Shown here in pieces: positions 841 to 33,450 of a stretch of DNA of 64,000 bases. Every line of letters starts with the position of its first letter. Position 1 is the first letter of the stretch. The notes beneath the pieces are model-generated. The model had not been told where the DNA came from and searched no databases. It saw only the letters and a list, made by a program, of their open reading frames with translations. The stretch spans positions 32,001 through 96,000 of the IMG/VR virus record IMGVR_UViG_3300046777_001793; one strand, 5' to 3'. A program made the position numbers and the translations under genes. The DNA is from a virus.

Positions 841-842
841 AA

Positions 843-2306: not shown

Positions 2307-2307
2307 A

Positions 2308-2823: not shown

Positions 2824-2850
2824 AATATAATATAATAAATTTTTTGCAGT

Positions 2851-3420: not shown

Positions 3421-3421
3421 T

Positions 3422-3601
3422 TTATTCTTTTTTATTAAACCTATTTGGATCTAAATCTGCAATAGGTGTAACCGGAGTTACTTCTTGTTGTTTTAATACT
3501 ATACTTACACATTTTGAACAAACAACCCTATTGTTTGCCATTGTGATTAAATAACTACCTGTACATGTACAAGTATTACAATTAGGACACGTTCTTGCCA
3601 T
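3422..3601 (-). CDS. small Cys-rich protein
   Basis: Start reassigned to MARTCPNCNTCTCTGS...CSKC directly after the upstream stop. Confidence 0.55.
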   Translation of the reverse strand: MARTCPNCNTCTCTGSYLITMANNRVVCSKCVSIVLKQQEVTPVTPIADLDPNRFNKKE

Positions 3602-3602
3602 C

Positions 3603-4148: not shown

Positions 4149-4154
4149 AATGGT

Positions 4155-4162
4155 CAAATATA
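4155..4162 (-). promoter_or_regulatory. Bacteroidota -7 promoter element TAnnTTTG
   Basis: Minus strand TATATTTG; same element at 8569-8576, 11892-11899, 19820-19827 and 28274-28281, each in an intergenic gap upstream of a minus-strand gene. Confidence 0.5.
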
Positions 4163-4169
4163 TAAAAAA

Positions 4170-4203
4170 AATGGAGAATAGAGAAACCCCCTACTCTCCA
4201 TTT
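4170..4203 (-). terminator. intrinsic terminator
   Basis: ATGGAG...CTCCAT stem with A-run on its left (U-tract on minus strand). Confidence 0.6.
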
Positions 4204-4224
4204 TAGAGTTTTTAAAAACCTATC

Positions 4225-5730
4225 TTATAATGCATCATACACATAAGGAGTGTGAGCATCAGATTGCAATGTAATTGGGTTATTTGCTTGAGCTAAGAAA
4301 TTAGCAACAAATGTTTCAAATGCAGTTGCAGCACCAAACGTATTTGGTATATAGATAGTCAATGCGTATTGATCATTGTCAAATACACCTGAAGGGTTAC
4401 TTACTCTTGGAACTGAATGTACCAATACGTAACGTGTATATTTAACATTTCTATCTACAGCATCATAGATGTCATTTCCTTGGTTGATTTCACGTAAACG
4501 CATATCATCATGGAAATGATTTGTCAAATAAGACTCATCTAATATGATGTTACGTAAAACTGACTCACCGTAACCTTGACCTTGGTATCCAGGAGTTTCT
4601 TCAACTGTACATAAACCTTCAAACTCACATGGTAAACCTGCTAAGTCAACTAATTGAGCTTTGATACGTACAATCTCTCTTTCATAAAAATCAGATTTTT
4701 GGAAAGATGTTTTACCAAACTTAGTTTCAACGTAAGCACCTTCTAAACGTAAACCAGCAGTTTTACCTGCAACGTGAGCTGGAGCAGTAGCTTCATAAGC
4801 TTCCATAGCAGCTAATGTATCTAACTTAGTTCCATCTTCAGCATAAACAATTGGTTTAACAAAATCTTTTAAGAATACATCATTCAAGATTTGTTTAGCC
4901 CAGTTGATCATAACTAAAGTAGAGTTTACAGGAGATGGTGCAGCACCAGGAGCACAGCATCCTGTGTAAGCAGCTAATCTACGGTAAGCATCATGATTCA
5001 AGAAACGTAATACAGGAGAACCCCATAAGTTTACTTGTAAGTTATATGTTTCGCCACATAAAAACTCAAAATCACATACAGCAGTTAATGTAAATGTTGC
5101 TGGAGTACCAGTTCCAGGAGTATAAGTAACTACATCACCTACTTTGTATCCTTTACCTCTATTAACAATAGAAACCGCTGTAACAACGTTACCTGCAACA
5201 GTAATTTTAATTGTTAATCCTGTACCAGAACCACCTGTAGTAGCTAAACCACCTACAACTGAAGAAGTACCGTTGGTTAAACCTGAACCAGGAGTTGTAA
5301 TTACAATACCAGTATGGTAGTTAGTGTTACCAATGTGAACAACATTTTGTTCTGCATCAGCACCTACTGATTTGTAAAATGCATTTACAAAACGTGGGTT
5401 AATAAGTTTTGACTTATTTGATTCAGCATAACCACCATGGAAAGGACCAATTTTATCATTAGTCAACAATGAAGTTGAAGCTAAAATTAAAGGTTTTCCT
5501 GGGTTAGCAGTTACCCATGCATTATCAACAGAAACATAAGTATTTGCTGTAAAGAAACCAAATACTTTCTTGTCAGCAACTTCTGTACCTAATTGTGCAT
5601 TTTGTGCTAACTCTTTTGTATGAAGACCTGCAGTTAACAAGAATCCATCTTCTACACTAACACCACCAGTGTTAAACGTAGGCTTTGTACCTAAAAATGA
5701 TTTGCGGTACGCATGATTAAAATAACTCAT
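4225..5730 (-). CDS. crAss-like virion structural protein (auxiliary capsid type) with Gly/Thr-rich inserted beta domain
   Basis: 501 aa, downstream of MCP; insert GGSGTGLTIKITVAGNVVTAVSIVNRGKGYKVGDVVT is typical of phage structural proteins. Confidence 0.6.
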   Translation of the reverse strand: MSYFNHAYRKSFLGTKPTFNTGGVSVEDGFLLTAGLHTKELAQNAQLGTEVADKKVFGFFTANTYVSVDNAWVTANPGKPLILASTSLLTNDKIGPFHGGYAESNKSKLINPRFVNAFYKSVGADAEQNVVHIGNTNYHTGIVITTPGSGLTNGTSSVVGGLATTGGSGTGLTIKITVAGNVVTAVSIVNRGKGYKVGDVVTYTPGTGTPATFTLTAVCDFEFLCGETYNLQVNLWGSPVLRFLNHDAYRRLAAYTGCCAPGAAPSPVNSTLVMINWAKQILNDVFLKDFVKPIVYAEDGTKLDTLAAMEAYEATAPAHVAGKTAGLRLEGAYVETKFGKTSFQKSDFYEREIVRIKAQLVDLAGLPCEFEGLCTVEETPGYQGQGYGESVLRNIILDESYLTNHFHDDMRLREINQGNDIYDAVDRNVKYTRYVLVHSVPRVSNPSGVFDNDQYALTIYIPNTFGAATAFETFVANFLAQANNPITLQSDAHTPYVYDAL

Positions 5731-5795
5731 TTTTTATTTTTTTAATTAATAAACAATATAAAGAATATACTAAAAAATTTTTAATTATCAAAATT

Positions 5796-5933
5796 TTAGC
5801 AACTTCCTTTTTTCATTGAACCACCCATTTTCTTTTTTGGAGTAGCTTTTTGCATCCATGGTGGCATTTTTTTACCACTAGCTGCTGCTGCTTTTGCAGG
5901 TTTTTTAGCCGAAGCTTTTTTCATTGTAGCCAT
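5796..5933 (-). CDS. small Lys/Ala-rich basic protein (45 aa)
   Basis: MATMKKASAKKPAKAAAASGKKMPPWMQKATPKKKMGGSMKKGSC; below track cutoff; packs between neighbours. Confidence 0.65.
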   Translation of the reverse strand: MATMKKASAKKPAKAAAASGKKMPPWMQKATPKKKMGGSMKKGSC

Positions 5934-5935
5934 TT

Positions 5936-6082
5936 TTATTTGTTTTTAGATTTAATTTTTTTCTCTTGTTTAAGCATTTCTTTTGTAGGTTTTTTACCAG
6001 AACCTTTATTGTCACGTATATTATCCCACAAACCTCTTTGTGAAACACTACCGTCTTTTCTTTTTAACATTTGCTTTGCCAT
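5936..6082 (-). CDS. small basic protein (48 aa)
   Basis: MAKQMLKRKDGSVSQRGLWDNIRDNKGSGKKPTKEMLKQEKKIKSKNK; 1-2 nt spacing to neighbours. Confidence 0.65.
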   Translation of the reverse strand: MAKQMLKRKDGSVSQRGLWDNIRDNKGSGKKPTKEMLKQEKKIKSKNK

Positions 6083-6083
6083 C

Positions 6084-6527
6084 TTATGAAAGGAATGTTA
6101 ATTTGTACATTAATGAATTGATACTTGATTTTGCAGTATCTAAATCATTTACAATTTCAGAATAACACATGTATTCTTGTAATTCGCAAATCATTGCTTT
6201 TAATTCTTTAGCATAAGCAATACCTTCTTCTTTAGTATTTAAAGTACGTGGTGTAATCTCTACATAAGAAAGTAATTCACATGTAGCACCTTGATATTGT
6301 TCTGCTAATGTATCTGCATGACCAGGTAATGCATCATAAATTTCATTTAATGCTGCGTGTGCTGCATAAGATCCAGGACCTGTAATTTTTAAATGTAACT
6401 TATGAAATGCAGTTCTTGCATTCATTAATTCAGAAACACAAGCAGCAGTCATTGATGAACAATCTTTTAATGTTTGTTGCATCACCGGTTGTCTTGAAAA
6501 CAATAAGTTTCTTTTTGGAGCATCCAT
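6084..6527 (-). CDS. ferritin/Dps-like four-helix protein (DUF5856-like)
   Basis: FHKLHL...SYAAHAALNEIYD...ADTLAEQYQG pattern. Confidence 0.7.
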   Translation of the reverse strand: MDAPKRNLLFSRQPVMQQTLKDCSSMTAACVSELMNARTAFHKLHLKITGPGSYAAHAALNEIYDALPGHADTLAEQYQGATCELLSYVEITPRTLNTKEEGIAYAKELKAMICELQEYMCYSEIVNDLDTAKSSINSLMYKLTFLS

Positions 6528-6532
6528 TATTA

Positions 6533-7234
6533 TTAGTTATTAGTTTCTACGTAATTATCAGTTAATTGATTTGCTGTAATATTTTCAATATCTCCTGCAA
6601 TTATTTTAGATGCTTCATCAATAAATAATTCTACCAAATCATCTTTAAATTCTGATTCTACAGTTTTCTTTGATGATTCTCCTGTGTAAGGATTAGACAC
6701 ACCAATAATTTCAATCTTATTAGGGAATCTATAATAAACAAGATTACCTGATGTAATTTCAAATTCATTATTGGTATAGACTTTTACTTTGTTATTTGCA
6801 AGGTTGCAAAAAGTTTCAGCCCATTGAAAATTTGGTTTACGGTGATGATTTCTAAGTAGCTCATCTGTATCACCTTCTCTACTTAAATAAATCATCATAG
6901 GTCTTTCATCACAACAACCAGATTTAGCTTTAGCATTAATACGCTTCCATTCCATAAAGTCTTTTGGAATATCTGCTTGATAAAATCCATCTTTCTTTTT
7001 TAAAGCTAAAGGTTTTTCTATAAGTAAAACTTGAAGATCTGTGATTCTTCTTTTAGAAGATTCATCTCCTTCTTTAAAGTGGTTATAACCATGTAAGTTT
7101 CTTCTTACCCAAGATATAGTTGCTTTATTAAAGGCTTCTACAATTCTCCAATCAGTAATGTTATCATAATCATTACTGGCAAGTTTATTTAACCTTTGTC
7201 TTACTTTTAATAGAATAACCTGATTTGAAATCAT
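6533..7234 (-). CDS. crAss-like ring/head-tail connector protein
   Basis: LNKLASNDYDN...FNKA, DESSKRRITDLQVLL, YYRFP pattern and position. Confidence 0.55.
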   Translation of the reverse strand: MISNQVILLKVRQRLNKLASNDYDNITDWRIVEAFNKATISWVRRNLHGYNHFKEGDESSKRRITDLQVLLIEKPLALKKKDGFYQADIPKDFMEWKRINAKAKSGCCDERPMMIYLSREGDTDELLRNHHRKPNFQWAETFCNLANNKVKVYTNNEFEITSGNLVYYRFPNKIEIIGVSNPYTGESSKKTVESEFKDDLVELFIDEASKIIAGDIENITANQLTDNYVETNN

Positions 7235-7398
7235 TACTTAACTTTTTTTAAATTAGGGTTTTTTGCCTTAGCTGCCGGAGATGCTTTGCGAGCAGAAGCT
7301 GCAAGTATTGCACCTGCAGCTTTCTCACTTATACCTTGTTTCTTAGCAATGTTTTTTTGAGCTGCTTTAAAGCCCATTCCTTTTTTAACTTTTGCCAT
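7234..7398 (-). CDS. small basic protein (54 aa)
   Basis: MAKVKKGMGFKAAQKNIAKKQGISEKAAGAILAASARKASPAAKAKNPNLKKVK; stop overlaps next start (TAATG). Confidence 0.65.
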   Translation of the reverse strand: MAKVKKGMGFKAAQKNIAKKQGISEKAAGAILAASARKASPAAKAKNPNLKKVK

Positions 7399-7399
7399 T

Positions 7400-7543
7400 T
7401 TACTTTTTACGTTTTACTTTTCCACCATAACGCATTTCATCAAGACCTTGTGAAACAGGTTTGCTAAAATTTTTAACTATTTTTCCACCATCACCCATTT
7501 TAGGTAATGATTTTTTTTTAACTGGTTTTTTAATTGCCGACAT
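7400..7543 (-). CDS. small basic protein (47 aa)
   Basis: MSAIKKPVKKKSLPKMGDGGKIVKNFSKPVSQGLDEMRYGGKVKRKK. Confidence 0.6.
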   Translation of the reverse strand: MSAIKKPVKKKSLPKMGDGGKIVKNFSKPVSQGLDEMRYGGKVKRKK

Positions 7544-7554
7544 GTTATTTAATT

Positions 7555-8544
7555 TTATTGAGCCCACATTTGTTCAACTTTAGCCATTAATGTGTCAAGG
7601 ACATCATCATTAGCTGGATTTTTCAAGAACTCTAATGCTTCAGCAGTATTTCTACCCATTAATGCATTAGAAGAAGTTTCATAAAGAACACCATCAGACT
7701 TAGCAGCAATAAATTTAACAAAGACAGCATCTTTGATTATTGCTTTAAGTTTTAAGTCTTCATTACTCATTTCAGATAAATCAATGAAATTTTGAGCTGC
7801 ACGCTTAACGCTTCCTTCAAAACTTAAACCATTGATGTATCTATCTAAATTGCTGTAAATAGTATCAGCCAATGTTCTATTGGTATATTGAATACTATTA
7901 CCATCAATTGATTTAATGATATAGAATAATTTTCTTTGCTCATCATCAGCCATTTCATCAAGGATTGATAATGCGCGGTTACGGATTTTAGTAACAGAAA
8001 TTTTAGATGCAACTGTATCTATCTCTCTATCTAAATACCACTTCTTGTTGAATTTTCTTGCATCATCATAAGATGGAGCAACAAGTGAAAATCCACCACC
8101 TTCTACCGCTTTGATAATCATTAAGTGATCAAGGTTGTTTGCTGGATCAAGAATTAAATCATCATTTCCTAATTTCAACATTAACTTACCAAACACTTCT
8201 GTATTATCAGAACGGAAGGTTTCTACTTTAGTCCAAAAATCTTTATCTTCTGGATCTATCTGATTAAATGCTCTTTCTCTTTCAAGGGTAGCAACTGTTT
8301 CTCTAATGTCTTTAATAACAGCAGCTTTTTTCTTTTCATCCTTAATTGATTTTACATAAGGAGCAAATTCATTAAGACCTGTTAAATAAACAGTTCTACC
8401 ATTTTGTTCAATTGCCGCTAAACTTTCAACTTGAAAAGTATTAGGGAATACTACATAATTGTAATTTTCCAATCCCATATTTTCAATGGTTGGATCACAA
8501 TAAGCTTTAATTCTAACTTTTGATGTTTTTGAATTTTGTGTCAT
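7555..8544 (-). CDS. conserved crAss-like capsid-module protein
   Basis: Long ORF next to MCP; ATG at 8544 preferred over TTG at 8571 because of the leader shared with 11846. Confidence 0.55.
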   Translation of the reverse strand: MTQNSKTSKVRIKAYCDPTIENMGLENYNYVVFPNTFQVESLAAIEQNGRTVYLTGLNEFAPYVKSIKDEKKKAAVIKDIRETVATLERERAFNQIDPEDKDFWTKVETFRSDNTEVFGKLMLKLGNDDLILDPANNLDHLMIIKAVEGGGFSLVAPSYDDARKFNKKWYLDREIDTVASKISVTKIRNRALSILDEMADDEQRKLFYIIKSIDGNSIQYTNRTLADTIYSNLDRYINGLSFEGSVKRAAQNFIDLSEMSNEDLKLKAIIKDAVFVKFIAAKSDGVLYETSSNALMGRNTAEALEFLKNPANDDVLDTLMAKVEQMWAQ

Positions 8545-8612
8545 AATTTTTGTTGGTTGGTTTTCTGACAAATTTAATAAAAAAGCAGGCCAATTTAATG
8601 ACCTGCTAAATT

Positions 8613-8870
8613 TTATGATAATGCATTAATAATTGCATTAAGTTTAGATTCAATTGCATCTAAACGTGTTTCTACTTCTCCTCTTAGACCTGTTACAGTT
8701 GTACCAGCTAAATCAGTAGATGCAGGTAATACTCCTACTGTACTTACAGCTTTAGCAAGATTTTCTAAAGCAGCATTAACATGTGCAATACGTGCAAATG
8801 CGTGTTCAGAAAAAGGTGCTTTTTCCAATACTGGATCTGGACTTTGAGTTTTTACTTTAGTAATTGACAT
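8613..8870 (-). CDS. small virion-module protein with coiled-coil C-terminus
   Basis: ORF between two terminator-like hairpins (8583-8607, 8889-8915). Confidence 0.55.
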   Translation of the reverse strand: MSITKVKTQSPDPVLEKAPFSEHAFARIAHVNAALENLAKAVSTVGVLPASTDLAGTTVTGLRGEVETRLDAIESKLNAIINALS

Positions 8871-8888
8871 AGTTTTATTGTTTTAAAA

Positions 8889-8915
8889 AAGAAACCGGCA
8901 CTGAACCGGTTTCTT
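8889..8915 (-). terminator. intrinsic terminator after MCP
   Basis: AAGAAACCGG-CACTGAA-CCGGTTTCTT inverted repeat with A-run on its left. Confidence 0.65.
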
Positions 8916-8932
8916 TATATTAATAACTAAGA

Positions 8933-10549
8933 TTATAATGAACCACCTGTTAATGGGTTTCTCATAACAATCTTCAATACTTTAGTAGGATCTTCTACTT
9001 TGATTGCAGGCATTGCCTGTGTCATGTAGATTTGGTATCCGTTAAAGTTACCAGAAGATTGGAATCCTTGTGTTCTTCCCATGTAATCCATAGTACCGTT
9101 CACATATCTCCATTGTAACTCTTTGTTCCAAGCACATTTTAACAATTTGATGTTGTCACTTCCGTTTTCAGTAACATCAAAGATGATGAATGAATAAGAA
9201 GATAAACGGAATCCATCAATTAATGGGTTCTCAATCTCATTGTTTTGTAAGTTATCAAACGCTGGGTTCAATACAAACTTAATGTTTGCTAAGAAAGGAA
9301 TAGTGTAAGATGTGAAAGAGAATCCAAATCCTAAGTCCATTCCTGTGTTTGTTACAGCACCAAGTTCTTTAGCATTCATTACTAATCCTGAAGACATTGC
9401 TTCACGTTTGATAGCTTCATTGATCATTTTCATACCACCCATACCAGTTTGAACAATAAGTTCTCTTTGTGGATCTGGACCTTGGAAGTCAACTTTACCA
9501 TTGTAGAAGTTGAAGATCTCTGAACGGAATACATCTAAACGGAAATCAGCTTTGTTGTAAACGTGTTTGAAAGACAAGTCTAATTGTTTCCAAAGACCTA
9601 CAGACAATCTGATGTCATCTGGACCATCTTGCTTGATTCTACCACCTTTACCCCACATAAGGTAAGTTTCAATATCATAAGCAATTTTAGAAAGGTGAGC
9701 AGCTTCCATTTTAGTGATGAAAGATTTAACAAGGTTTCCATTGTCAATAGCTTTCTTCACATAGTCTTTACCTTTAGTAGCAACCATTCCTTCTAATGTG
9801 TTCACAGATGGATCAACATTTGTATCAAAGTTTTTCCAAATTTCCATTACTGGAACTGAACCATCAGCTTTCATACCACCCATTTCCATCAATTTAACTC
9901 TTGAAGAAACTGTGTAGTGTACGTGCGCATCTGCATTACCTACATAGTTGTAGAACTCACGAGTTGAATGAGTCATAGAAAGATCTGAATACTTCTCACC
10001 ATATTCTCCTTTAGCAGAACCTACTCTGAAGAAATAAGTTTGAGATGTCAAGAATTTATCAGCAGGGAAAACTCTTGTAGAGTCCAAGTTTGGCATTTGA
10101 ACTGTATAGATGAAACCATCACCTACATCCAAGATGTCAGCATCAGTAATGAATAATTCAATACCATTGAATTTATCATAAGTGATGATGTCACCATGTC
10201 CAAATGTTCTCTTGTTTAACTTGATGCGGAATGGAGTTCCATCTGCACCAATGTCAGAACCTGTTTCAATATTTTCAACTACGTATGGTAACTCTTCAGA
10301 AACTGGAGTAGTCCATTTGTACTCACCTCTTGGGTGGTTTACTTCAATTACGTTTTTACCGTTAAAAGAAGACATTTTGTACAATGGCATCTCTACTTTC
10401 TTAACCTGTGCCCATAACTCAATTGGTCCTAAATCATCAGGTTGTGCATCCTTCATCAAGTTCATCAAGTGAAATGAATCAACATGAGAAGTAGCTTGAT
10501 AACTGTTCTCTCTTAAAAAGAGGCCGTTATTTAAAACTGGTGTACTCAT
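8933..10549 (-). CDS. major capsid protein (crAss-like, HK97 fold)
   Basis: 538 aa; YLMWGKGG, GLWKQL, TGMGGM, FVLNPAFDN, SYSFIIFD motifs; terminase-portal-scaffold-MCP order. Confidence 0.85.
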   Translation of the reverse strand: MSTPVLNNGLFLRENSYQATSHVDSFHLMNLMKDAQPDDLGPIELWAQVKKVEMPLYKMSSFNGKNVIEVNHPRGEYKWTTPVSEELPYVVENIETGSDIGADGTPFRIKLNKRTFGHGDIITYDKFNGIELFITDADILDVGDGFIYTVQMPNLDSTRVFPADKFLTSQTYFFRVGSAKGEYGEKYSDLSMTHSTREFYNYVGNADAHVHYTVSSRVKLMEMGGMKADGSVPVMEIWKNFDTNVDPSVNTLEGMVATKGKDYVKKAIDNGNLVKSFITKMEAAHLSKIAYDIETYLMWGKGGRIKQDGPDDIRLSVGLWKQLDLSFKHVYNKADFRLDVFRSEIFNFYNGKVDFQGPDPQRELIVQTGMGGMKMINEAIKREAMSSGLVMNAKELGAVTNTGMDLGFGFSFTSYTIPFLANIKFVLNPAFDNLQNNEIENPLIDGFRLSSYSFIIFDVTENGSDNIKLLKCAWNKELQWRYVNGTMDYMGRTQGFQSSGNFNGYQIYMTQAMPAIKVEDPTKVLKIVMRNPLTGGSL

Positions 10550-27435: not shown

Positions 27436-27692
27436 CAGCTCCCACAATTTAAACAACCCTCATCATCATCTTCTTCCGGATGAGTTTCAATTCTAGGATT
27501 TAGAATTTTTTTCAACTCATAAATCTCCTGTTGTATATCTCCATCCTGGAAAATATCACCAGTCAATTGCGTTCTCAATTCCGCAATCTTTGCTTTGATT
27601 TCATTTTCTTCCATACTTTCTAGCTCTTTGTACTTTTTTAAACATTCTCTTACCTTCCTTTTCCATCTTGTGTTTCTTATACTCAAACTCAT
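27435..27692 (-). CDS. hypothetical protein with C-terminal CxxCGS
   Basis: Coiled coil, acidic stretch, then CLNCGS; start uncertain (27692 or 27614). Confidence 0.5.
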   Translation of the reverse strand: MSLSIRNTRWKRKVRECLKKYKELESMEENEIKAKIAELRTQLTGDIFQDGDIQQEIYELKKILNPRIETHPEEDDDEGCLNCGS

Positions 27693-27731
27693 TCATTGGA
27701 GCACATGCTGAAATAAAAAGAAACAATATCA

Positions 27732-28253
27732 TTACTCTATACATTCCTTCTTTTTAAATTTTTCAAACACATCAAACACCTTATTCTCAAAAACCTTTCT
27801 CTTTCTTGACAAAAATGGATTCAGCATATAACACACACGCACCTCACCATAAATCCTACCCTTAATCTGATATAACACCCCAGCAGAAACCAAACGTGTA
27901 ATCAACTTCATAAACATGCTCTTTGATGAAATCTCTAAATACTTTTGTAGAGATTCATTTGTATGAGGTATAGTATTATTAAATACAATGTTCAAAGGAG
28001 TCTTTGTAACAACACTCATCTTAATCACATTTGCAAGATCACTATTGTTCAACAACTTTGTTAATTCCAATAAAGCTTCAGTTTCTAATACAGCATAATC
28101 ATTAGAAGTAATCATACTCATACCAGTTTCCTTACTCACATTAACTCCTTCAGGAACTTCAGCCAATACCTTAACCTCACCTGTAACCTCATCTACATAA
28201 GATTCCAAATCTAACTCCACGTTACTCTTTAAGGACTTTACTTTAGCACTCAT
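27732..28253 (-). CDS. RepL-like (plasmid-type) winged-helix replication protein
   Basis: VDEVTGEV N-terminal motif, HTH LQKYLEISSKSMFMKLITRLVSAGVL, CYMLNPFL. Confidence 0.65.
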   Translation of the reverse strand: MSAKVKSLKSNVELDLESYVDEVTGEVKVLAEVPEGVNVSKETGMSMITSNDYAVLETEALLELTKLLNNSDLANVIKMSVVTKTPLNIVFNNTIPHTNESLQKYLEISSKSMFMKLITRLVSAGVLYQIKGRIYGEVRVCYMLNPFLSRKRKVFENKVFDVFEKFKKKECIE

Positions 28254-28282
28254 CTGTCATTTCATTTACAGGACAAATATAA

Positions 28283-28382
28283 CTAAAAATAACACTTTTG
28301 TGCTAAAAATAACACTTTATTTTTTACCCAGGTGCTAAAAATAACACCTGTGAGCCTTGTGAGGTGCTAAAAATAACACCTG
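28283..28382. repeat. four iteron-like repeats CTAAAAATAACAC
   Basis: Copies start at 28283, 28303, 28335, 28367; the last two are extended to AGGTG-CTAAAAATAA-CACCTG. Confidence 0.85.
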
Positions 28383-28807
28383 ATAAAAACCCCCACAACC
28401 CTTGAAAACATTGGGCTATCCCCCCATCCTAAGCAAAAACGTACTTATTCTTATTTAGGAGCACATGATGCTAACGCTATAAAGAGAAATTCATGTGTGT
28501 GGCGGAGAATGGGTATATTGAAAATTATGGATATAATGGTGTGTATGGGTCCTTCCATTATTTGCCCCCCGGGCAAACACAATGTCAGGTGTACCCCCTA
28601 GGCAAGCAGCAGGCACAGAGGTTATTGTTATAGCATAATGACATTAATTTTCTCCAGGGAAGAAGTTTGTGTGCCAGAGGAGAAGGGTGCTTGTCAAGAG
28701 AGTGCTTGGGAAGCAGAGCAAGAGAAGAGAGTGACACAGGAAGGAAGATGCAGGGCAAGGTCTTATTCTATATTAATGACCTCTCGGTCATTTTAAATTT
28801 TATAATT

Positions 28808-28990
28808 ATGAAAAATTTTTCAGTAAGAGAAATGATTATCATACTAAATGTTGTGGTAATCATTGCATTAGCAGGTTCATTGACTGCTTTATGCATTACA
28901 ACTAATGTTGTGTTTGTGTACACCTTTGTGTGCACAGCACCAGTTGCTATGCTTTGTGTTTTAATACTTGATAAGTATGAGAAACAATAA
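28808..28990 (+). CDS. small two-TM membrane protein
   Basis: Start reassigned to MKNFSVREM; two hydrophobic segments. Confidence 0.55.
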   Translation: MKNFSVREMIIILNVVVIIALAGSLTALCITTNVVFVYTFVCTAPVAMLCVLILDKYEKQ

Positions 28991-29282
28991 TTTGAAAAGG
29001 GGAGCTTCCGTAGGGAAGTTCTACCTTTACACTATGGTTATTATAACCATAGTATTAATATTTATAATGAGTTCTTGTTCTAAAGGAACATACTATAAGT
29101 ATGCCTACATAGATTGTAGGAAACAAGATGTGGTTACAACTCATTTGATTCCAGTTAACCACACCTTATCTGATGCAGAGATTAACCAAAGACTCTCTGT
29201 ATATAGAGCTGAAAGAAACAGTTATGTCCTTATGGATACAATTGTATTGGAAACAGCTTCTACATTATTTATGTTAAAATAA
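28977..29282 (+). CDS. putative lipoprotein
   Basis: Hydrophobic helix ending in lipobox-like IMSSC. Confidence 0.55.
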   Translation: MRNNNLKRGASVGKFYLYTMVIITIVLIFIMSSCSKGTYYKYAYIDCRKQDVVTTHLIPVNHTLSDAEINQRLSVYRAERNSYVLMDTIVLETASTLFMLK

Positions 29283-29287
29283 TTATT

Positions 29288-29455
29288 ATGAAAAAGAAAA
29301 TAGAAAAGGCACTATTATATATAGTGTCAATCATACTAGTGCTTGTTGGATTAACAGGCACTATGTTACACAACCAACTAATTGGTTGTGTTAGTTTATT
29401 AATGTTCATTGCAGGAATAATTGCCTTTATAGGCACAATGAACAAGTATGAGTAA
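29288..29455 (+). CDS. small two-TM membrane protein (55 aa)
   Basis: MKKKIEKALLYIVSIILVLVGLTGTMLHNQLIGCVSLLMFIAGIIAFIGTMNKYE; below track cutoff. Confidence 0.6.
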   Translation: MKKKIEKALLYIVSIILVLVGLTGTMLHNQLIGCVSLLMFIAGIIAFIGTMNKYE

Positions 29456-29464
29456 GACATTCTT

Positions 29465-29497
29465 GACCACGCATTCTACTACGGTAGGTGTGTGGTC
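29465..29497 (+). terminator. hairpin closing the membrane-gene trio
   Basis: GACCAC...CTAC-TACG-GTAG...GTGGTC with a cUACGg loop; weak U-tract. Confidence 0.45.
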
Positions 29498-29527
29498 TTA
29501 CGCTTTAGGACAAACGTGTAACCTTTA

Positions 29528-30214
29528 ATTCTATATCAATTACCTTTGGTAATTTTCCCAGTGCGTTACATTCACACCCATTGATAGGCTACGCCTATCA
29601 TCACCCACATCAAAGACAAGGCACACCAACAAAGAGATTACTATCATCAGCACCCAATGTAACACAGCAATGCACCGGCCTTCGGCCTATGCCTATCGGC
29701 ATCAACAATGTAATGTAATCTTACATTCTATACCAATTACCTTCGGTAATTACTTATTACAAAAAGTCCTGTTGCTGATTAACTGAACAAATGATGTTTC
29801 AGCAACAGGCATTATGTCGTTGTAGGTGTATTATTATAACCTTCTGTTTGCAGTTTTAGAATAAAACTGTTGTTTGTATGTTAGGCCTAAACATTCACCA
29901 CCAATACCATTAAGCGTATTGGGTATTCTCATTCAAGCAGATTGTATAAAGCAATGTTAAAAGGGTTGCAACCTTATGAGAATACAACAACTATGGGGGA
30001 AAGTCCTTTAAGGATACCAATTATTACCGTCTAACATTTGGTAATAACGGTGCGTAAAGCCATAGCGTGAATTAGAGATAGCCCTGATTATAGGGTGTTT
30101 GAGAATGAGTGACCAAGGTTAGTGGTTAGAGCATTTGGCTAATTAAGTGTCAACGAGATAGACACTATTTTTTCCTCACAACCTTTCATTCTAAACCAAC
30201 TACCTTCGGTAGTT
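29528..30214 (+). promoter_or_regulatory. three copies of a conserved triloop-hairpin element (candidate virion-RNAP promoters)
   Basis: ATTCTAwAyC-AAyTACC-TTy-GGTArTT at 29528-29554, 29725-29751 and 30188-30214; compensatory base pair in copy 3. Confidence 0.6.
29760..30173 (+). ncRNA. candidate ~410 nt structured non-coding RNA
   Basis: No ORF of 60 aa or more; many perfect stems; starts after hairpin copy 2 and ends at a terminator (30146-30173). Confidence 0.5.
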
Positions 30215-30339
30215 CTTACGCTACGCGTCTTATGCTTTTGCATATATTCCTAAAATTTGGTTAGGGAATTAAAATAATTAACCAGCATTTATTAATTTTT
30301 AGAAACCTTGTGGTGTATAGGTCAACCCAATCTACGGTA

Positions 30340-31014
30340 ATGGAAACTTTAAACACATTAACCGCAAAAAAAGAGTTCATTAAAAACAATTTGGACAAAT
30401 TGTCTGATGAAACTCGCCCATCTGCATCTCAAATTAATGCTTTCAAGGCTGGTGACACAAACCACGTTGATGCTTTAGTAGAAGAGATTAACTCATTTGT
30501 TGCACCTGCAAATGATGTTATAGCAGATGAAACTGTTGAAAAAGTTGATACACTTGTGTATGAAACATTAACAACAGAATCAGGTGCAAGTGTTGAAGTT
30601 GTTTGGTTGCCATTCCTTAAATATGGAATGCGACAAGACAAACAAACACGCAAGGTTAGAACTAATTACCAATTTGGTTTTGGCTCTAACATAGTAACCA
30701 TTCAAAACTCTTTACTTGACCCAATCAAGAAGAGCATTGAAGTAGGTGCAATGTTCCCTATCAAGGTTGAAACTATTCAGCCTATTGTAGCAGAACGCAC
30801 TTATGGTTACGGTAAACAAGTATTCTCCGCAGGTATTGCTGAATTTGCTTGTGAGTTGTTGCTTGATGCACGTGCAGAGAAAATGGAAGAGTTGGAAGAA
30901 CTTTCTCAATTATCTGCGGAAGCACAAGAGATGGTTATTAAAGCAACCGCTTTAAGCCAAGCAGAGCAATACTTATTGAAGAAAGGTATTAAGTTACCTT
31001 CATCAATGAAATAG
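30340..31014 (+). CDS. hypothetical early protein
   Basis: ATG 30340 (METLNTL); stands alone between hairpin copy 3 and a hairpin at 31022-31042. Confidence 0.7.
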   Translation: METLNTLTAKKEFIKNNLDKLSDETRPSASQINAFKAGDTNHVDALVEEINSFVAPANDVIADETVEKVDTLVYETLTTESGASVEVVWLPFLKYGMRQDKQTRKVRTNYQFGFGSNIVTIQNSLLDPIKKSIEVGAMFPIKVETIQPIVAERTYGYGKQVFSAGIAEFACELLLDARAEKMEELEELSQLSAEAQEMVIKATALSQAEQYLLKKGIKLPSSMK

Positions 31015-31021
31015 AGATAAT

Positions 31022-31054
31022 GGAGTGGTGTAACAACCACTCCTAATCTTTTTT
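31022..31054 (+). terminator. intrinsic terminator
   Basis: GGAGTGGT-GTAACA-ACCACTCC followed by TAATCTTTTTT. Confidence 0.6.
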
Positions 31055-31285
31055 GTGGGAGCTCTTTGAAACCTCCGGTTTCAGCCGCAAGGCAACCTTC
31101 CCTGAAATTACAGGCTGATTGCGTGTGTAGCGTAACGTATGGATGTTTAAATTACCGTTCCCATAATATGCAGGGTGTGACAATAACACCCAGAAATTAC
31201 CGTTCCCATGCGTGTGTAGCAACGCTTTAAAGGATAAATTACTATCATCATAACACAGTATCACATTTAAAAAACCCTAGAAAAA

Positions 31286-31468
31286 ATGAACAATAACTTA
31301 ATGTTAACTGAAATAACACTCAACCCAAAAGAGTATTACCAGTTCAGATTACTAGCATTACAGCACAGAGTAATGTTCACAGTAGAGTGGACCAAACAAG
31401 GTGCATTAGTTTCTTGTGAAACTCCATTCCTAATTGCATTTGGTTACATCAATCAAGTAGAATTTTAA
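31286..31468 (+). CDS. hypothetical protein
   Basis: 60 aa ORF preceded by TTACTATCATCA and AACCCTA motifs. Confidence 0.55.
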   Translation: MNNNLMLTEITLNPKEYYQFRLLALQHRVMFTVEWTKQGALVSCETPFLIAFGYINQVEF

Positions 31469-31751
31469 TTAAATGACTATCAGCATTTTACATTTTGCCT
31501 TTTTACCTGTTTTCGCTTTTATATAGGCATTTTGTAATTTGCTGATTAATAACCGGTTAGTCTACTTGTTACACCGGTAAAACACAACAAAAATTACCAC
31601 TTTCAACTAAGAATTTAATTGATAACACACAAATTGTAGCAGATTGTGGTAAATTTTTTTGTGTAACGTGTTGATTTGTAAGTGTTTGGCGACCAGTCAC
31701 CCAAATCATCATATTTCATAAAACCCCTAAACCCTAAAAAATTTTAATAAT

Positions 31752-32087
31752 ATGGCAATAAGACAGTTTATTACAGGCTTCAAGACCTTTGTAGTATTGA
31801 CTACTTGTATGTTAGCAATGCAGAACTTATACACAACAATACAGTATGGTAGGCTTAATGCTTACTATGACTTTGATGTTATAGATTGGTCTTTAATGAC
31901 TATATGTGTTCTCTTTAACTTATCTATTAGTGTTATTGATGCTATAACAACCACAGAAACGTGTATAATACAAACAGATACAGACACTTTATCATATCTG
32001 GAGAAAACATTACCATTCATACCAGATGGAGATTTTAAACAAGAGATTACAGAGCATATAGAAAACATATATGTAGAGAAGTATTAA
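31752..32087 (+). CDS. two-TM membrane protein
   Basis: Two hydrophobic segments. Confidence 0.55.
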   Translation: MAIRQFITGFKTFVVLTTCMLAMQNLYTTIQYGRLNAYYDFDVIDWSLMTICVLFNLSISVIDAITTTETCIIQTDTDTLSYLEKTLPFIPDGDFKQEITEHIENIYVEKY

Positions 32088-32155
32088 GGGTGAAGCCGGA
32101 GATAATATCAATGGCTTTCATCATTATATGGCAATAAAAAATAAAAGACATTCCT

Positions 32156-32392
32156 ATGATTAAATTAACATTTATATGGTGGTTACTTACAGGAACAGTA
32201 ACACCAACAGGTGAACAACATGAAGGACATAAACTTTATCACGTTCTAGTAGATAAGAATACCGCAATTGAGAATGCCTATAAAGGTGAGATTCTTAATT
32301 ACATTAAGACAGGAACATTTGTGTACAATGATTTCTATGAATGGGAAGATGAAGACCAGATCATAGAAGAAACATTTTACACAAAAAATTAA
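32156..32392 (+). CDS. hypothetical protein
   Basis: 78 aa ORF with A-rich leader. Confidence 0.55.
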   Translation: MIKLTFIWWLLTGTVTPTGEQHEGHKLYHVLVDKNTAIENAYKGEILNYIKTGTFVYNDFYEWEDEDQIIEETFYTKN

Positions 32393-32399
32393 ATAACAT

Positions 32400-32690
32400 T
32401 CCACACTACTGGATTATGTTACAGCAGTAGTATATCAACGGTATCCTTAACAGGGCTTGGAGATGGGTTGTAACAATTAAGTCCACAAAGTAATACGTAA
32501 TTAGTCAACTCTATTATCTTTGTGGCATGAATGGTAGTCAGGCTGCTTACTATGTGCATTAAACTACAACGCAATAGTTTCACATAGTTCCTGATGATTT
32601 GCGTAGATTGACCCAAAGGCATGGGTTGTGTAAAAAATATGGCTATCAAGTGTCATACAATCTGAACAGGTGCTTCCTGTTATTTATAAA
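32400..32690 (+). ncRNA. candidate structured RNA
   Basis: Stems TGTTACAGC/GTTGTAACA, CCACAAAG/CTTTGTGG, TCAGG-ACTATGTG-AAACTA/TAGTTT-CACATAGT-CCTGA, GACCCA/TGGGTT, TATGGC/GTCATA, AACAGG/CCTGTT. Confidence 0.4.
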
Positions 32691-32700
32691 AAAGAATATT

Positions 32701-32784
32701 ATGAACAGATGTATTTATTGCAATGCAAAAATTATTGATGAAGCTGAACTATGTGATGAATGTAGTGTAGGTGAAAGTATTTAA
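32701..32784 (+). CDS. 27 aa zinc-ribbon peptide
   Basis: MNRCIYCNAKIIDEAELCDECSVGESI with A-rich leader. Confidence 0.45.
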   Translation: MNRCIYCNAKIIDEAELCDECSVGESI

Positions 32785-32789
32785 AATAT

Positions 32790-32879
32790 GGTGGTATGGC
32801 GGAATTGGTAGACGTATTAACTCTTTAAGATGATTTCAACAGGAGAAAAGATATACAGGTTCAAGTCCTGTTGCCACCT
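32790..32879 (+). tRNA. aberrant class II tRNA-like gene (Leu-type D arm, uncertain anticodon)
   Basis: Acceptor GGTGGTA/TGCCACC, D arm TGGCGGAATTGGTAGACG, T arm ACAGG-TTCAAGT-CCTGT; anticodon arm imperfect. Confidence 0.55.
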
Positions 32880-33011
32880 CATTTTCCCCTGCAATAAGTG
32901 GATCGGAGTGAATAATCAGGTAACAACTCCCCTCAAACGGTATGAGAGAATGTAAGGCTAAACAATAGTCTGATAACCGGAAAATAGTGACAGCCAGGAA
33001 AGACTGGTAAC

Positions 33012-33135
33012 TGGTTGGTAGCATACATGGTGTATGTATAGGTTCATAAAGTGTCGGTAGTCAAGACTGTGATTAAGCAATATAAGCATGAGAATAAAGC
33101 ACACCTATCACAGGTTCAAGTCCTGAACCAACCAC
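33012..33135 (+). tRNA. tRNA-like gene with an ~55 nt insertion in the anticodon loop
   Basis: Acceptor TGGTTGG/CCAACCA, D stem GCAT/ATGT, ATAGGT/ACCTAT stem, CAGG-TTCAAGT-CCTG T arm. Confidence 0.45.
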
Positions 33136-33364
33136 GAAGTTCGCTGGTTAATGGGAGAGATTGGTATCTTATCATCTCACGTGAATGGATTGTTTTAAAG
33201 GCAACAAATACTCACACCAACCTCTGCAACTTGAAACAAAACTGTACTGCTTTAGAAAGATAGCACCTGATAGGCTTTGACCTATGAAGATACCGGGAAA
33301 AATTTGATGAAGTATGTATGATGTCCGACAAGTTTGCCACAGGGTATGTTTTAGCAGGACAATT

Positions 33365-33427
33365 AACCGGTGATTAGATAAATATTTACTTGACATTCAT
33401 AAATATCTATCACCGGTTTCTTTTTTT
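33365..33427 (+). terminator. long hairpin terminator closing the RNA cluster
   Basis: AACCGGTGAT..GATA...TATC.ATCACCGGTT followed by TCTTTTTTT. Confidence 0.65.
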
Positions 33428-33450
33428 AGTAACCCCTTAATACATAATAA

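What the first reader, a model, noticed from the sequence alone, without database searches (positions are those of the whole stretch)
29528..30228. Array of C-GNA-G triloop DNA hairpins: candidate N4-like promoters for a crAss-type virion RNA polymerase
Seen: three copies of ATTCTAwAyC plus a 7-bp stem and 3-nt loop (29538-29554, 29735-29751, 30198-30214), with a compensatory T-A to C-G change in copy 3. Three unrelated stems share the loop class: TGATAGGC-TAC-GCCTATCA (29582-29600), GGCC-TTC-GGCC (29677-29687) and ACGC-TAC-GCGT (30218-30228). On the minus strand five loops read C-GAA-G or C-GTA-G and one reads C-AAA-G. Established: C-GNA-G is an extra-stable DNA minihairpin and the template-strand element of N4 virion-RNAP promoters; crAss-like phages package an unrelated RNAP that transcribes ssDNA in vitro. 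Inference: convergent hairpin promoters driving the plus-strand early arm. Priming signals or DNA-ejection checkpoints are alternatives. The RNAP gene is not in this window.
Basis: partly seen in the sequence, partly recalled or inferred. Interest (0 to 1): 0.88.

Follow-up and report, generated by a model that had tools for sequence, protein, structure and literature searches.

The report
Box-plus-hairpin early promoter candidates
Four copies of a short conserved DNA box followed by a tiny hairpin sit at the head of the first rightward genes and RNAs of an uncultured freshwater crAss-like phage, and they are a precise, testable candidate for the still undescribed start signal of the RNA polymerase that such phages inject.

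Summary
The 120.5-kb phage genome has four elements, not three. Each is a 17-nt box (AAyCTTnnATTCTAwAy) followed by a 7-bp stem and a 3-4 nt loop. All four lie on the + strand between 28749 and 30214, at the head of the rightward arm.

- **Relatives:** a related phage (L019) has five such elements, with the same box and other stems. Four of seven stem pairs show compensatory changes.
- **Loops:** 10 of 11 read G..A on the template strand, which is the stable DNA mini-hairpin class. The same census picks out three template-strand GNA hairpins in N4, upstream of gp1, gp2 and gp15.
- **Polymerase:** the genome encodes a homologue of the crAss virion RNA polymerase.
- **Host-type boxes:** TAnnTTTG boxes mark the leftward arms but not the rightward arm.
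- **RNA:** contigs from RNA libraries begin 13-21 nt after hairpin c3. This is a weak hint only.

Most likely these are phage-specific early promoters, probably read by the injected polymerase. The architecture is not N4's, because the conserved part lies upstream of the hairpin. No start site has been mapped, and a second motif (TTACTATCATCA) competes as the general early signal. This scan noted similar arrays before on other crAss-like DNA.

The parts
28749..28792 (+). Element c0. Flank and box ..CAAGGTCTT-ATTCTATATT (box core 28765-28774). Hairpin AATGACC-TCTC-GGTCATT (28775-28792). Template-strand loop GAGA. Lies 15 nt upstream of the ATG at 28808.
   Evidence: (55.2 bits)
29512..29554 (+). 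Element c1. Box AACCTTTA-ATTCTATATC (core 29528-29537). Hairpin AATTACC-TTT-GGTAATT (29538-29554). Template-strand loop AAA, the one exception to G..A. Followed by non-coding sequence.
   Evidence: 32.4 bits; homologue X in L019
29709..29751 (+). Element c2. Box AATCTTAC-ATTCTATACC (core 29725-29734). Hairpin AATTACC-TTC-GGTAATT (29735-29751). Template-strand loop GAA. Heads a non-coding unit of about 420 nt.
   Evidence: (28.3 bits)
30172..30214 (+). Element c3. Box AACCTTTC-ATTCTAAACC (core 30188-30197). Hairpin AACTACC-TTC-GGTAGTT (30198-30214). Template-strand loop GAA. Lies just after a terminator and heads the 5' leader of the 224-aa gene.
   Evidence: (31.3 bits)
28808..29455 (+). Three small ORFs behind c0: 28808-28990 (60 aa, hydrophobic), 29034-29282 (82 aa, lipoprotein-like N-terminus) and 29288-29455 (55 aa, hydrophobic).
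   Evidence: the functional labels are read by eye from the translations
29555..29708 (+). Non-coding stretch behind c1. It holds hairpins 29582-29600 (TGATAGGC-TAC-GCCTATCA), 29677-29687 (GGCC-TTC-GGCC) and 29689-29702, plus two CTATCATCA words (29595, 29641).
   Evidence: The fold covered 29555-29724 (z -3.48). No ORF under TAG=Q or TGA=W beyond chance size.
29752..30173 (+). Non-coding, structured unit behind c2, ending in an intrinsic-terminator-like hairpin (GTGTC-9 nt-GACAC plus T-run, 30147-30173).
   Evidence: z -2.53. Contigs from RNA libraries cover 29773-29955 in 2 of 4 runs. No Rfam family.
30215..30339 (+). Leader of the 224-aa gene. The block CGCTACGCGTCTTATG is conserved with L019 and L023, and mini-hairpin ACGC-TAC-GCGT lies at 30218-30228. 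Assembled RNA-library contigs and record L022 begin at 30227-30235.
30340..31014 (+). 224-aa protein of unknown function, the first larger gene of the rightward arm. It has 12 relatives in the big protein collection plus the L019 ORF, 45-88% identical.
31023..31083 (+). Intrinsic terminator (31023-31055), then a box-less hairpin TGAAACC-TCC-GGTTTCA (31067-31083) with template-strand loop GGA. L019 keeps it as TGAACC-TCC-GGTTCA.
27732..28382 (-). First leftward gene (173 aa, YMLNP motif) and, upstream of it, the repeated palindrome AGGTGCTAAAAATAACACCTG (28283-28382). This is the left border of the switch region.

Best explanation
The four box-plus-hairpin elements are phage-specific early promoters, or essential parts of them. 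They head the first rightward transcription units of a crAss-like phage: one small-membrane-protein operon, two non-coding RNAs and the 224-aa gene.

The most likely reader is the injected crAss-type virion RNA polymerase. The most likely mechanism has three parts:
1. The 17-nt box supplies sequence recognition.
2. The adjacent inverted repeat is extruded, so that a stable C-G(N)NA-G mini-hairpin forms on the template strand.
3. RNA synthesis starts a few to about 13 nt downstream of the stem.

Shown: the family, its restriction to the head of the arm, its orientation, the covariation, the strand-specific loop class, the polymerase homologue, and the lack of host-type boxes on this arm.

Inferred: that transcription starts there, which polymerase reads it, and that the hairpin acts as single-stranded DNA.
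For: 1. Four copies only, all on the + strand within 1.5 kb at the divergent switch, which is also the GC-skew minimum.
2. The related phage record G001 (L019) has five copies. They are likewise confined to 2.2 kb at the head of its early arm and lie on the sense strand of that arm. There are none elsewhere in its 81.7 kb.
3. The box and the geometry are fixed: the loop starts 17 nt after the A of ATTCTA in all 9 elements scanned. The stems differ (AATGACC, AATTACC, AACTACC, AAGTTC, AAAGTTC, TGTCC). Over 11 elements, 96.1% of cells are paired, 4 of 7 pairs change on both sides, and the covariation score is 0.670 against 0.237 in shuffles, with 0 of 500 shuffles reaching it. The homologous pair c3/D keeps both flanks while 4 of 7 stem positions are exchanged.
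4. Template-strand loops are GAGA, GAA, GAA, GTAA (x5) and GCAA, with one AAA, and the closing pair is always C-G. C-GNA-G and C-GNNA-G are the 'mini-hairpin DNA' class (abstract of PMC13037366, seen in the listing). For N4, the closing G:C pair and the loop's 5'G and 3'A are what hairpin extrusion needs (PMC4496689, passages).
5. Positive control: the same census on the first 8 kb of N4 returns three template-strand GNA hairpins among 18 C-G-closed hairpins, and none on the sense strand. They lie upstream of gp1, gp2 and gp15, and one ends 12 nt before the gp2 ATG. Here the hairpin-to-ATG gaps are 13-15 nt.
6. Elements begin units. Intrinsic terminators lie just upstream of c3 and of L023 D, and a T-run lies at the same place before L019 D. 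Elements A, B and C in L019 follow the previous stop codon.
7. Residues 1000-2600 of the 3715-aa ORF match the gp66 frame of phi14:2 (E 2e-13 and 2.8e-11). The match includes DYDID at the place of DFDID. G001, which shares the box, has a 61% identical polymerase.
8. The Bacteroidota sigma-A -7 box TAnnTTTG (PMC9723704, passages) precedes 9 of 19 leftward genes that have an upstream gap of at least 40 nt, but only 1 of 21 rightward genes. Fisher p = 0.0028, and control words score 0-1.
9. Weak hint: contigs of RNA libraries from different coded studies begin at 30227 (X15) and 30235 (X18), 13-21 nt after the c3 stem, with no loose end. JGI record L022 also begins at 30227.
Against: - No transcript 5' end has been mapped. 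Contigs cannot show starts or strands, DNA carry-over in the RNA libraries is not excluded, and L022 and X15 may come from one sample.
- For phi14:2 the authors found no common motif upstream of early transcripts (preprint 10.1101/2020.03.07.982082, passages). My census finds no such hairpin in its first 9 kb. The signal is therefore not general to the family.
- The elements cover only the first 1.5 kb of a roughly 40-kb arm. Another motif, TTACTATCATCA, lies 28-45 nt before five ATGs along the arm and is also present in L019. It could be the polymerase's real promoter.
- One element (c1) has an AAA loop.
- Element D has a G-T pair that would be an A-C mismatch on the template strand.
- The stems are AT-rich and weak, at -3.3 to -5.5 kcal/mol with DNA parameters. 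The computed difference between strands is at most 0.7 kcal/mol.
- Only two independent lineages could be compared.
Confidence: 0.5

Rival explanations
1. The hairpin acts in RNA. Transcription starts at or just before the stem, with the box as the promoter proper at -17 to -1. The hairpin is then a 5'-terminal stem-loop that stabilises the early RNAs or marks a processing site, as with 5' stem-loops of phage mRNAs.
For: - Covariation cannot tell RNA from DNA pairing.
- Element D has G-T pairs on the + strand, which are G-U in RNA but an A-C mismatch on the other strand.
- The hairpins sit at a fixed 13-15 nt before ATGs.
- Other hairpins of the region are clearly RNA-type, with + strand wobbles and a + strand GAGA loop in L019 (read by eye).
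Against: - + strand loops (UUC, UUU, UCUC, UUAC, UUGC) belong to no stable RNA loop class that I know (recalled). Their complements are G..A in 10 of 11 elements.
- Genome-wide, such loops number 0 on the + strand and 14 on the - strand.
- The RNA-library contigs that reach furthest upstream begin after the c3 hairpin, at 30227 and 30235. Contigs of three runs bridge hairpin 31067-31083, so such a hairpin does not by itself break these contigs. This is a weak hint.
Confidence: 0.2
2. The elements are promoters for the host RNA polymerase, redirected by an alternative or phage-brought specificity factor. The inverted repeat would be a regulator's binding or control site.
For: - Clusters of strong early promoters at the leading end are common in phages that use the host enzyme (T7 A1-A3, recalled).
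- The box contains a TAwAy word that loosely recalls a -10 element.
Against: - There is no TAnnTTTG and no TTG-type -33 partner in the box. Host-type boxes are found on the leftward arms instead.
- A sequence-specific dimeric protein would need conserved half-sites, but the stems differ between copies of one genome while pairing is kept.
- In phi14:2 the rightward arm is transcribed in the presence of rifampicin (preprint).
Confidence: 0.12
3. The elements are single-strand DNA signals unrelated to transcription: priming sites for complementary-strand synthesis, origin elements, or pausing or checkpoint sites during DNA ejection or packaging.
For:
- Stable DNA mini-hairpins are also known at replication origins (recalled).
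Against: - Each element sits in register with a gene or RNA unit. Each comes after a stop or terminator and 13-15 nt before an ATG, in two phages whose gene content there differs.
- All are co-oriented with transcription.
Confidence: 0.08
4. The elements are intrinsic terminators or insulators of the preceding units.
For: Some copies are followed by T-rich sequence: c0 TTTTAAATTTT, c1 TTTTCCC, L019 D TTTTTTC.
Against: - c2 and c3 have no T-run.
- Real terminators, with long GC-richer stems and T-runs, lie directly upstream of c3 and of L023 D.
- A 17-nt conserved box upstream of the stem is not a terminator feature.
Confidence: 0.03

Closest known systems
Early promoters P1-P3 of coliphage N4 (Schitoviridae), read by the injected virion RNA polymerase gp50 (review PMC4496689, passages read; N4 sequence examined)
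   Same: - A few copies clustered at the head of the early genes and co-oriented with them.
- A 5-7 bp stem whose sequence is free as long as it pairs.
- A C-G closing pair and a G..A loop on the template strand.
- A short distance to the next ATG (12 nt at N4 gp2; 13-15 nt here).
- A phage that injects its own giant polymerase.
   Different: - The polymerase is of an unrelated type: a two-barrel gp66 homologue rather than a T7-like single-subunit enzyme.
- The conserved sequence is an AT-rich 17-nt box upstream of the hairpin, not a GC-rich heptamer in the hairpin plus a few bases downstream.
- Loops are 3 or 4 nt, and one is AAA.
- The stems are AT-rich.
- Extrusion, dependence on SSB or gyrase, and the start site are all untested.
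Early region of Cellulophaga phage phi14:2, the crAss-like model for the virion RNA polymerase gp66 (preprint 10.1101/2020.03.07.982082, abstract, passages and section 4 read; the final Nature paper is not held)
   Same: - A rightward replication arm and leftward virion arms.
- A gp66-type polymerase.
- Host-type promoters on leftward genes.
- Long, highly transcribed non-coding stretches near the head of the rightward arm (g004-g006), like the two non-coding units here.
   Different: - The authors found no common motif upstream of early 5' ends.
- I found no C-G-closed G..A hairpin (0 of 10) and no box repeat in its first 9 kb.
- The 224-aa gene has no homologue in g004.
Extraordinarily stable mini-hairpin DNA, GCGNAGC / GCGNNAGC (PMC13037366; only the abstract in the listing was seen)
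   Same: C-GNA-G and C-GNNA-G on the template strand in 10 of 11 elements.
   Different: The stems here continue with A-T pairs rather than G-C. The stability of these particular sequences has not been measured.
Box-plus-hairpin arrays noted earlier by this scan in other uncultured crAss-like phages (AI notes e1-6131529, e1-6019249, e1-5941615, e1-6157306, e1-5898692, e1-6109915)
   Same: Small covarying hairpins with fixed flanking boxes at the head of the rightward arm, read as candidates for the virion polymerase's start signal. e1-6131529 ('hairpin + ATTTAG') has the reverse complement of the CTAAAT core and may be the L019 lineage.
   Different: The boxes differ in sequence and in position, before or after the hairpin. 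I did not check those notes and they are not independent evidence.

Membership tests
N4-type hairpin promoters of a virion RNA polymerase | Inverted repeat forming a 5-7 bp stem whose non-conserved bases may vary as long as they pair | tested here: met
   7-bp stems (5-7 bp in L019). 96.1% of cells paired and 4 of 7 pairs with changes on both sides.
N4-type hairpin promoters of a virion RNA polymerase | 3-nt loop with 5'G and 3'A on the template strand, closed by C-G | tested here: inconclusive
   The closing C-G is invariant in 11 of 11 elements. G..A lies on the template strand in 10 of 11. Only c2 and c3 have 3-nt GNA loops. c0 and all L019/L023 elements have 4-nt GNNA loops, and c1 has AAA.
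N4-type hairpin promoters of a virion RNA polymerase | Conserved -17 to +1 sequence with a GC-rich heptamer centred on the loop | tested here: not met
   Conservation lies in an AT-rich 17-nt box 5' of the stem. Apart from the closing pair, the stem varies. The N4 hairpins show GC-TNC-GC.
N4-type hairpin promoters of a virion RNA polymerase | Read by a T7-like single-subunit virion polymerase | tested here: not met
   The giant ORF is homologous to the two-barrel gp66 of phi14:2. The PF00940 search of the genome found nothing, but its controls did not ring either, so that search is uninformative.
N4-type hairpin promoters of a virion RNA polymerase | Located in the first-injected tenth of the genome; start site a few nt 3' of the stem; needs supercoiling and SSB | not testable with these tools
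   The physical ends are unknown, since the record closes on a 27-bp assembly overlap. The only data are RNA-library contig ends 13-21 nt after the c3 stem.
Early transcription units of crAss-like phages read by a gp66-type virion polymerase | Genome encodes a gp66 homologue with the DxDxD catalytic motif | tested here: met
   A 3715-aa ORF carries GADYDIDKMF at residue 1696. It matches the gp66 frame at E 2e-13 and 2.8e-11.
Early transcription units of crAss-like phages read by a gp66-type virion polymerase | Rightward replication arm without host-type promoters; leftward arms with them | tested here: met
   Layout. TAnnTTTG precedes 9 of 19 leftward genes and 1 of 21 rightward genes.
Early transcription units of crAss-like phages read by a gp66-type virion polymerase | Rifampicin-resistant transcripts starting at the element | not testable with these tools
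   There is no cultured host and no raw-read 5' ends.
Intrinsic (Rho-independent) terminator | GC-rich stem followed directly by a T-run | tested here: not met
   c2 is followed by ACTTATT and c3 by CTTACGC. The stems are AT-rich, at -3.3 to -5.5 kcal/mol.
Palindromic operator of a dimeric DNA-binding protein | The same half-site sequence in all copies | tested here: not met
   Three different stems occur among the four copies of this genome, and further ones in L019. Complementarity is kept but sequence is not.
lambda-type nut site (boxA + boxB RNA) | Hairpin loop of the GNRA-like class on the transcribed (sense) RNA | tested here: not met
   Sense-strand loops are TTC, TTT, TCTC, TTAC and TTGC. 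The nut definition is recalled, not looked up.

The most novel reading that the evidence does not exclude
These are the first defined promoters of the crAss-type two-barrel virion RNA polymerase. They would work through a template-strand DNA mini-hairpin extruded next to a recognition box. That would be a solution convergent with coliphage N4, although the two injected polymerases are unrelated. It would also explain why the enzyme transcribes only single-stranded or denatured DNA in vitro.
Probability: 0.35. Interest if true: 0.85.

Novelty: new variant of a known kind. Interest (0 to 1): 0.7.

Why it matters
crAss-like phages are among the most abundant viruses known, and all of them package a giant RNA polymerase. 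In the papers I could search and read, no start signal for this enzyme is described. The phi14:2 study reports no common motif upstream of early transcripts.

The signal found here is short and exactly delimited. It has a 17-nt box, a closing C-G pair, G..A loop ends and a free stem. That gives oligonucleotide templates and mutants for a direct in vitro test. If it holds, it offers three things:
- a way to annotate immediate-early genes in uncultured relatives;
- a second, independent case of hairpin promoters for injected polymerases;
- a handle on how the first DNA that enters the cell is expressed.

Tried and rejected
**Searches for relatives that gave little**
- blastn of 28200-30400 against GenBank phages found no match. 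tblastn of the 224-aa protein there also found none.
- In viral contigs, the 224-aa protein alone gave nothing, and an exact box+hairpin pattern gave nothing.
- The 539-aa tail-side protein gave 13 loci, but their upstream 10 kb is co-directional and holds no element.
- The 173-aa protein gave 5 loci, of which only L019 has a switch region.
- The pattern AACCTTTAATYCTAWAY hit 119 or more stretches. Only the L019 record has several copies with a C-G-closed hairpin.
- The polymerase, alone and as an alignment, found only the L019 record.
- Metagenome contigs gave 2 short records. Genome contigs gave none.
- The search for homologous proteins gave 12 relatives of the 224-aa protein.

**Other checks that did not help**
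- Rfam gave nothing in the region at gathering threshold and only chance-level rows at E up to 1.
- There are no convincing ORFs in 29456-30340 under TAG=Q or TGA=W.
- Folding energies of the two strands, with RNA or DNA parameters, differ by at most 1.4 kcal/mol and do not discriminate.
- The PF00940 search was uninformative because its controls were silent.
- PHROGs and PDB sequence searches of the giant ORFs gave only an AlkB-like domain.
- phi14:2 has no similar repeat or hairpin.
- The more distant records G002-G005 have no model hit above 18.6 bits.

**RNA libraries**
Parts of 27500-32500 without contig cover in the four runs (27500-29772, 29956-30226 and 31541-32500) are not evidence of silence.

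**Readings rejected**
- Chance.
- Palindromic operator.
- Terminator.
- nut-like RNA.

**Papers not held or not seen**
- The final Nature version of the phi14:2 study and Gleghorn et al. 2008 are not held.
Supplementary Table 4 and Supplementary file 1 of the phi14:2 study hold primer-extension ends and motif hits and could bear on the claim that no early motif is known.
Full report
**What the window is.** The window is bases 32001-96000 of a single 120,528-bp virus record that closes on itself by a 27-bp overlap. The layout is crAss-like.
- Leftward arm: portal, large terminase and major head protein.
- Rightward arm: helicase and DNA polymerase.
- A block of giant leftward ORFs of 3715, 2053, 2125 and 1652 aa.

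GC skew changes sign at 28-30 kb of the window. The leftward and rightward genes diverge there: the first leftward gene starts at 28253, and the first rightward ORF starts at 28808.

**The observation.** The repeat finder adds a fourth copy at 28754-28791. The common form has three parts:
- an 8-nt flank (AAyCTTnn, or AAGGTCTT in c0);
- the core ATTCTAwAyy;
- a 7-bp stem with a loop of 3 nt (c1-c3) or 4 nt (c0).

The exact core with its two following A's occurs four times on the + strand of the whole genome, only here, and once on the - strand at a place where I saw no hairpin.

A covariance model was built only from c0 and seven elements of other records. In the genome it scores c0 highest (55.2 bits; c0 was in the training set) and recovers c1, c3 and c2 as the next three hits, at 32.4, 31.3 and 28.3 bits. 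The next hit has 16.9 bits.

**A relative.** The first leftward gene (173 aa) has a 70-72% identical homologue on an 81.7-kb IMG/VR record (L019 = G001). Read in the orientation of its early genes, that record carries five elements within 2.2 kb. One has ATCCTAAAT and the rest ATTCTAAAT. There are no further model hits above 17.5 bits in the record. A 1.2-kb metagenome record (L023) is close kin of L019 and holds two of the elements.

Three L019 elements (A, B, C) follow the stop codon of the previous ORF and lie 13-15 nt before the next ATG. c0 does the same here, at 15 nt.

Homologous pairs can be recognised by their flanks. c1 corresponds to X, and c3 corresponds to D. In c3/D the box and the downstream block CGCTA(A)CGCGTCTTATG are nearly identical, while the stem is AACTACC in one and TGTGTCC in the other.

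**Covariation.** On the model-guided alignment of 11 elements:
- 96.1% of cells are standard pairs.
- The closing C-G pair never varies.
- Four of seven pairs change on both sides (18 cells).
- The covariation score is 0.670 against 0.237 in shuffles, with 0 of 500 shuffles reaching it.
- Sliding the 3' partner drops pairing to 24-51%.

The alignment was fitted to this structure, which favours it. However, the ungapped MAFFT alignment shows the same pairs by eye. Only two lineages contribute, so the number of independent events is small.

**Which strand.** Sense-strand loops are TCTC, TTT, TTC, TTC, TTAC (x5) and TTGC. The complements are GAGA, AAA, GAA, GAA, GTAA and GCAA.

In a census of all perfect C-G-closed hairpins of the genome (173 with stem of at least 4 bp and loop of 3-4 nt):
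- Loops beginning with G and ending with A number 0 on the + strand and 14 on the - strand.
- Eight of the 14, and all five with stems of at least 6 bp, lie in 28700-31100.
- Shuffles of that region give 0.058 (stem at least 4) and 0.004 (stem at least 6) per shuffle under the stricter GNA/GNRA rule, against 7 and 5 observed. None of 1000 shuffles reaches these counts.

L019 shows the same bias: seven such hairpins, all on the template strand of its early arm.

As a positive control I ran the same census on the first 8 kb of coliphage N4. Of 18 C-G-closed hairpins it returns three, all with the GNA loop on the template strand. They lie upstream of gp1, gp2 and gp15. These are the places where the review puts the three virion-polymerase promoters, within the leftmost tenth of the genome (PMC4496689). 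By the N4 rule (sense loop TNC, template loop GNA), all elements here point rightward, as the genes do.

Computed energies barely differ between the strands. The argument therefore rests on the loop class, not on the energy model.

**The polymerase.** That refutation does not apply.
- The 3715-aa ORF lies at genome 108855-120002, beyond the window's end. It has GADYDIDKMF at residue 1696.
- Residues 1000-2600 match the 2184-aa open frame of phi14:2 that corresponds to gp66. The match has two blocks (E 2e-13 and 2.8e-11), and the second covers the DYDID site.
- L019's record has a 4114-aa ORF that is 61% identical over this part. The two phages that share the box therefore share a close polymerase.

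**Host-type promoters.** The -7 box of Bacteroidota sigma-A, TAnnTTTG (PMC9723704), lies within 80 nt upstream of 9 of 19 leftward genes that have an upstream gap of at least 40 nt. It does so for only 1 of 21 rightward genes (Fisher p = 0.0028). Three control words give 0-1 hits. This mirrors phi14:2, where middle and late leftward genes have host-type promoters and the rightward early genes are transcribed in the presence of rifampicin (preprint). The gene lists in this test are simple ORF calls of mine, not curated annotation.

**RNA data.** Four riverine metatranscriptome runs hold parts of the stretch. Their Logan contigs, 90-99% like the window, cover these parts:
- 29773-29955, behind c2, in 2 runs;
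- 30227 or 30235 up to 31155, behind c3, through the 224-aa gene and its terminator, with gaps, in 4 runs;
- 31390-31540, in 1 run.

The two contigs that reach furthest upstream begin at 30227 (X15) and 30235 (X18), with no loose end. A JGI record (L022) begins at the same base, 30227. Contigs of three runs bridge the hairpin at 31067-31083, so such a hairpin does not by itself break the contigs.

By the tool's own standard this is a weak hint of an RNA 5' end 13-21 nt after the c3 stem. Contigs show neither strand nor true ends, DNA may be present in such libraries, and L022 and X15 may stem from one sample.

**What does not fit N4.** In N4 the conserved part is the hairpin itself, a GC-rich heptamer centred at -11, plus a few bases up to +1. 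The N4 sequences show GC-TNC-GC with little conservation upstream. Here the situation is different:
- The stem is free apart from the closing pair.
- The conserved part is a 17-nt AT-rich box upstream.
- Loops may have four bases, and one loop is AAA.

The polymerases are also unrelated. The elements therefore work at most like N4 promoters. They are not members of that family.

**What weakens the promoter reading.**
- No start site has been mapped.
- phi14:2 shows no such signal.
- The elements cover only the first 1.5 kb of the arm. Downstream, another word recurs on the + strand in intergenic places: TTACTATCATCA at 29638, 31239, 35198, 39975 and 67245, which is 28-45 nt before ATGs in four of the five cases. 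It is often followed by AACCCTAAA close to the ATG.
- L019 has TACTATCATCA on the strand of its early arm at three places (938, 2494, 44897), two of them homologous to sites here.
- This second motif could be the general promoter of the arm. The box-hairpin elements would then be a special immediate-early class, or something else.

They are real but not a conserved class.
- At the place of 29582-29600, L019 has a different hairpin with a TGGC loop (structure read by eye).
- At 30218-30228 it has CGC-TAAC-GCG.
- The box-less hairpin at 31067-31083 (TCC loop; GGA on the template strand) is kept in L019, with one base pair fewer.

**Verdict.** The elements are a real, selected cis-signal with a conserved box and a hairpin maintained by compensatory change. 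They are restricted to the head of the early arm in two related phages. I put 0.5 on their being early promoters read by a non-host enzyme, most likely the injected polymerase. I put about 0.35 on the fuller claim that the hairpin acts as template-strand DNA, as in N4. The main rival, at 0.2, is an RNA-level 5' stem-loop behind a box promoter.

The scan has noted similar arrays on other crAss-like DNA before. I did not test those notes.

Noticed in passing
window 29638, 31239, 35198, 39975, 67245 (+ strand); variant AAATCATCA at 31703; L019 938, 2494, 44897 (- strand): A second + strand motif, TTACTATCATCA, lies in intergenic places 28-45 nt before ATGs along the whole rightward arm. It is often followed by AACCCTAAA 5-25 nt before the ATG, and it is shared with L019. 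It may be the general promoter or leader signal of the arm.
   Followed up: partly
It is preceded by two exact copies of the palindrome AGGTGCTAAAAATAACACCTG, 32 nt apart, with looser CTAAAAATAACAC copies on the side towards the gene. A TATATTTG host-type box lies about 20 nt before its ATG. L019 has different palindromes (GGAAGTT type) at the same place. Together these look like operator or iteron sites at the GC-skew minimum.
   Followed up: partly
window 28400-28760: A non-coding block of about 350 nt upstream of c0 is conserved with L019. Shared stretches include GGGTAwATTGAA..GGATATAAT.GTGTG, GTCCTTCC and CCCC.GGC. It is purine-rich towards its end. Its function is unknown: an RNA, a packaging site or a genome end.
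   Followed up: partly
window 32393-33450: A non-coding stretch of about 1 kb holds a 91-nt tRNA-Lys(TTT) at 32790-32880. A second T-arm-like word (GGTTCAAGTCCTG) lies near 33113, but ARAGORN and Rfam call no tRNA there.
   Followed up: no
window 31148-31210: A direct repeat, AAATTACCGTTCCCAT, occurs twice, 47 nt apart, in the non-coding stretch between hairpin 31067-31083 and the gene at 31286. Related words (ATACTATCCCAT, ATTACTATCCCAT) stand in L019.
   Followed up: no
window 30347-30525: In close relatives, seen in RNA-library contigs and in L022, 177 nt of the N-terminal part of the 224-aa gene are replaced by 183 other letters. This is a variable segment inside an otherwise conserved gene.
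   Followed up: no
L143 (phi14:2) 1-9000: The crAss-like model phage has no C-G-closed hairpin with a G..A loop on either strand in its first 9 kb (0 of 10). Instead it repeats ATTAACAAyTAAAACTAA just before several ATGs.
   Followed up: partly
L019 about 2600-2630 (reverse strand): A 12-bp hairpin with + strand G-U wobbles and a sense-strand GAGA loop closes the lipoprotein operon just before element X. It is an RNA-type structure, in contrast with the box hairpins.
   Followed up: no
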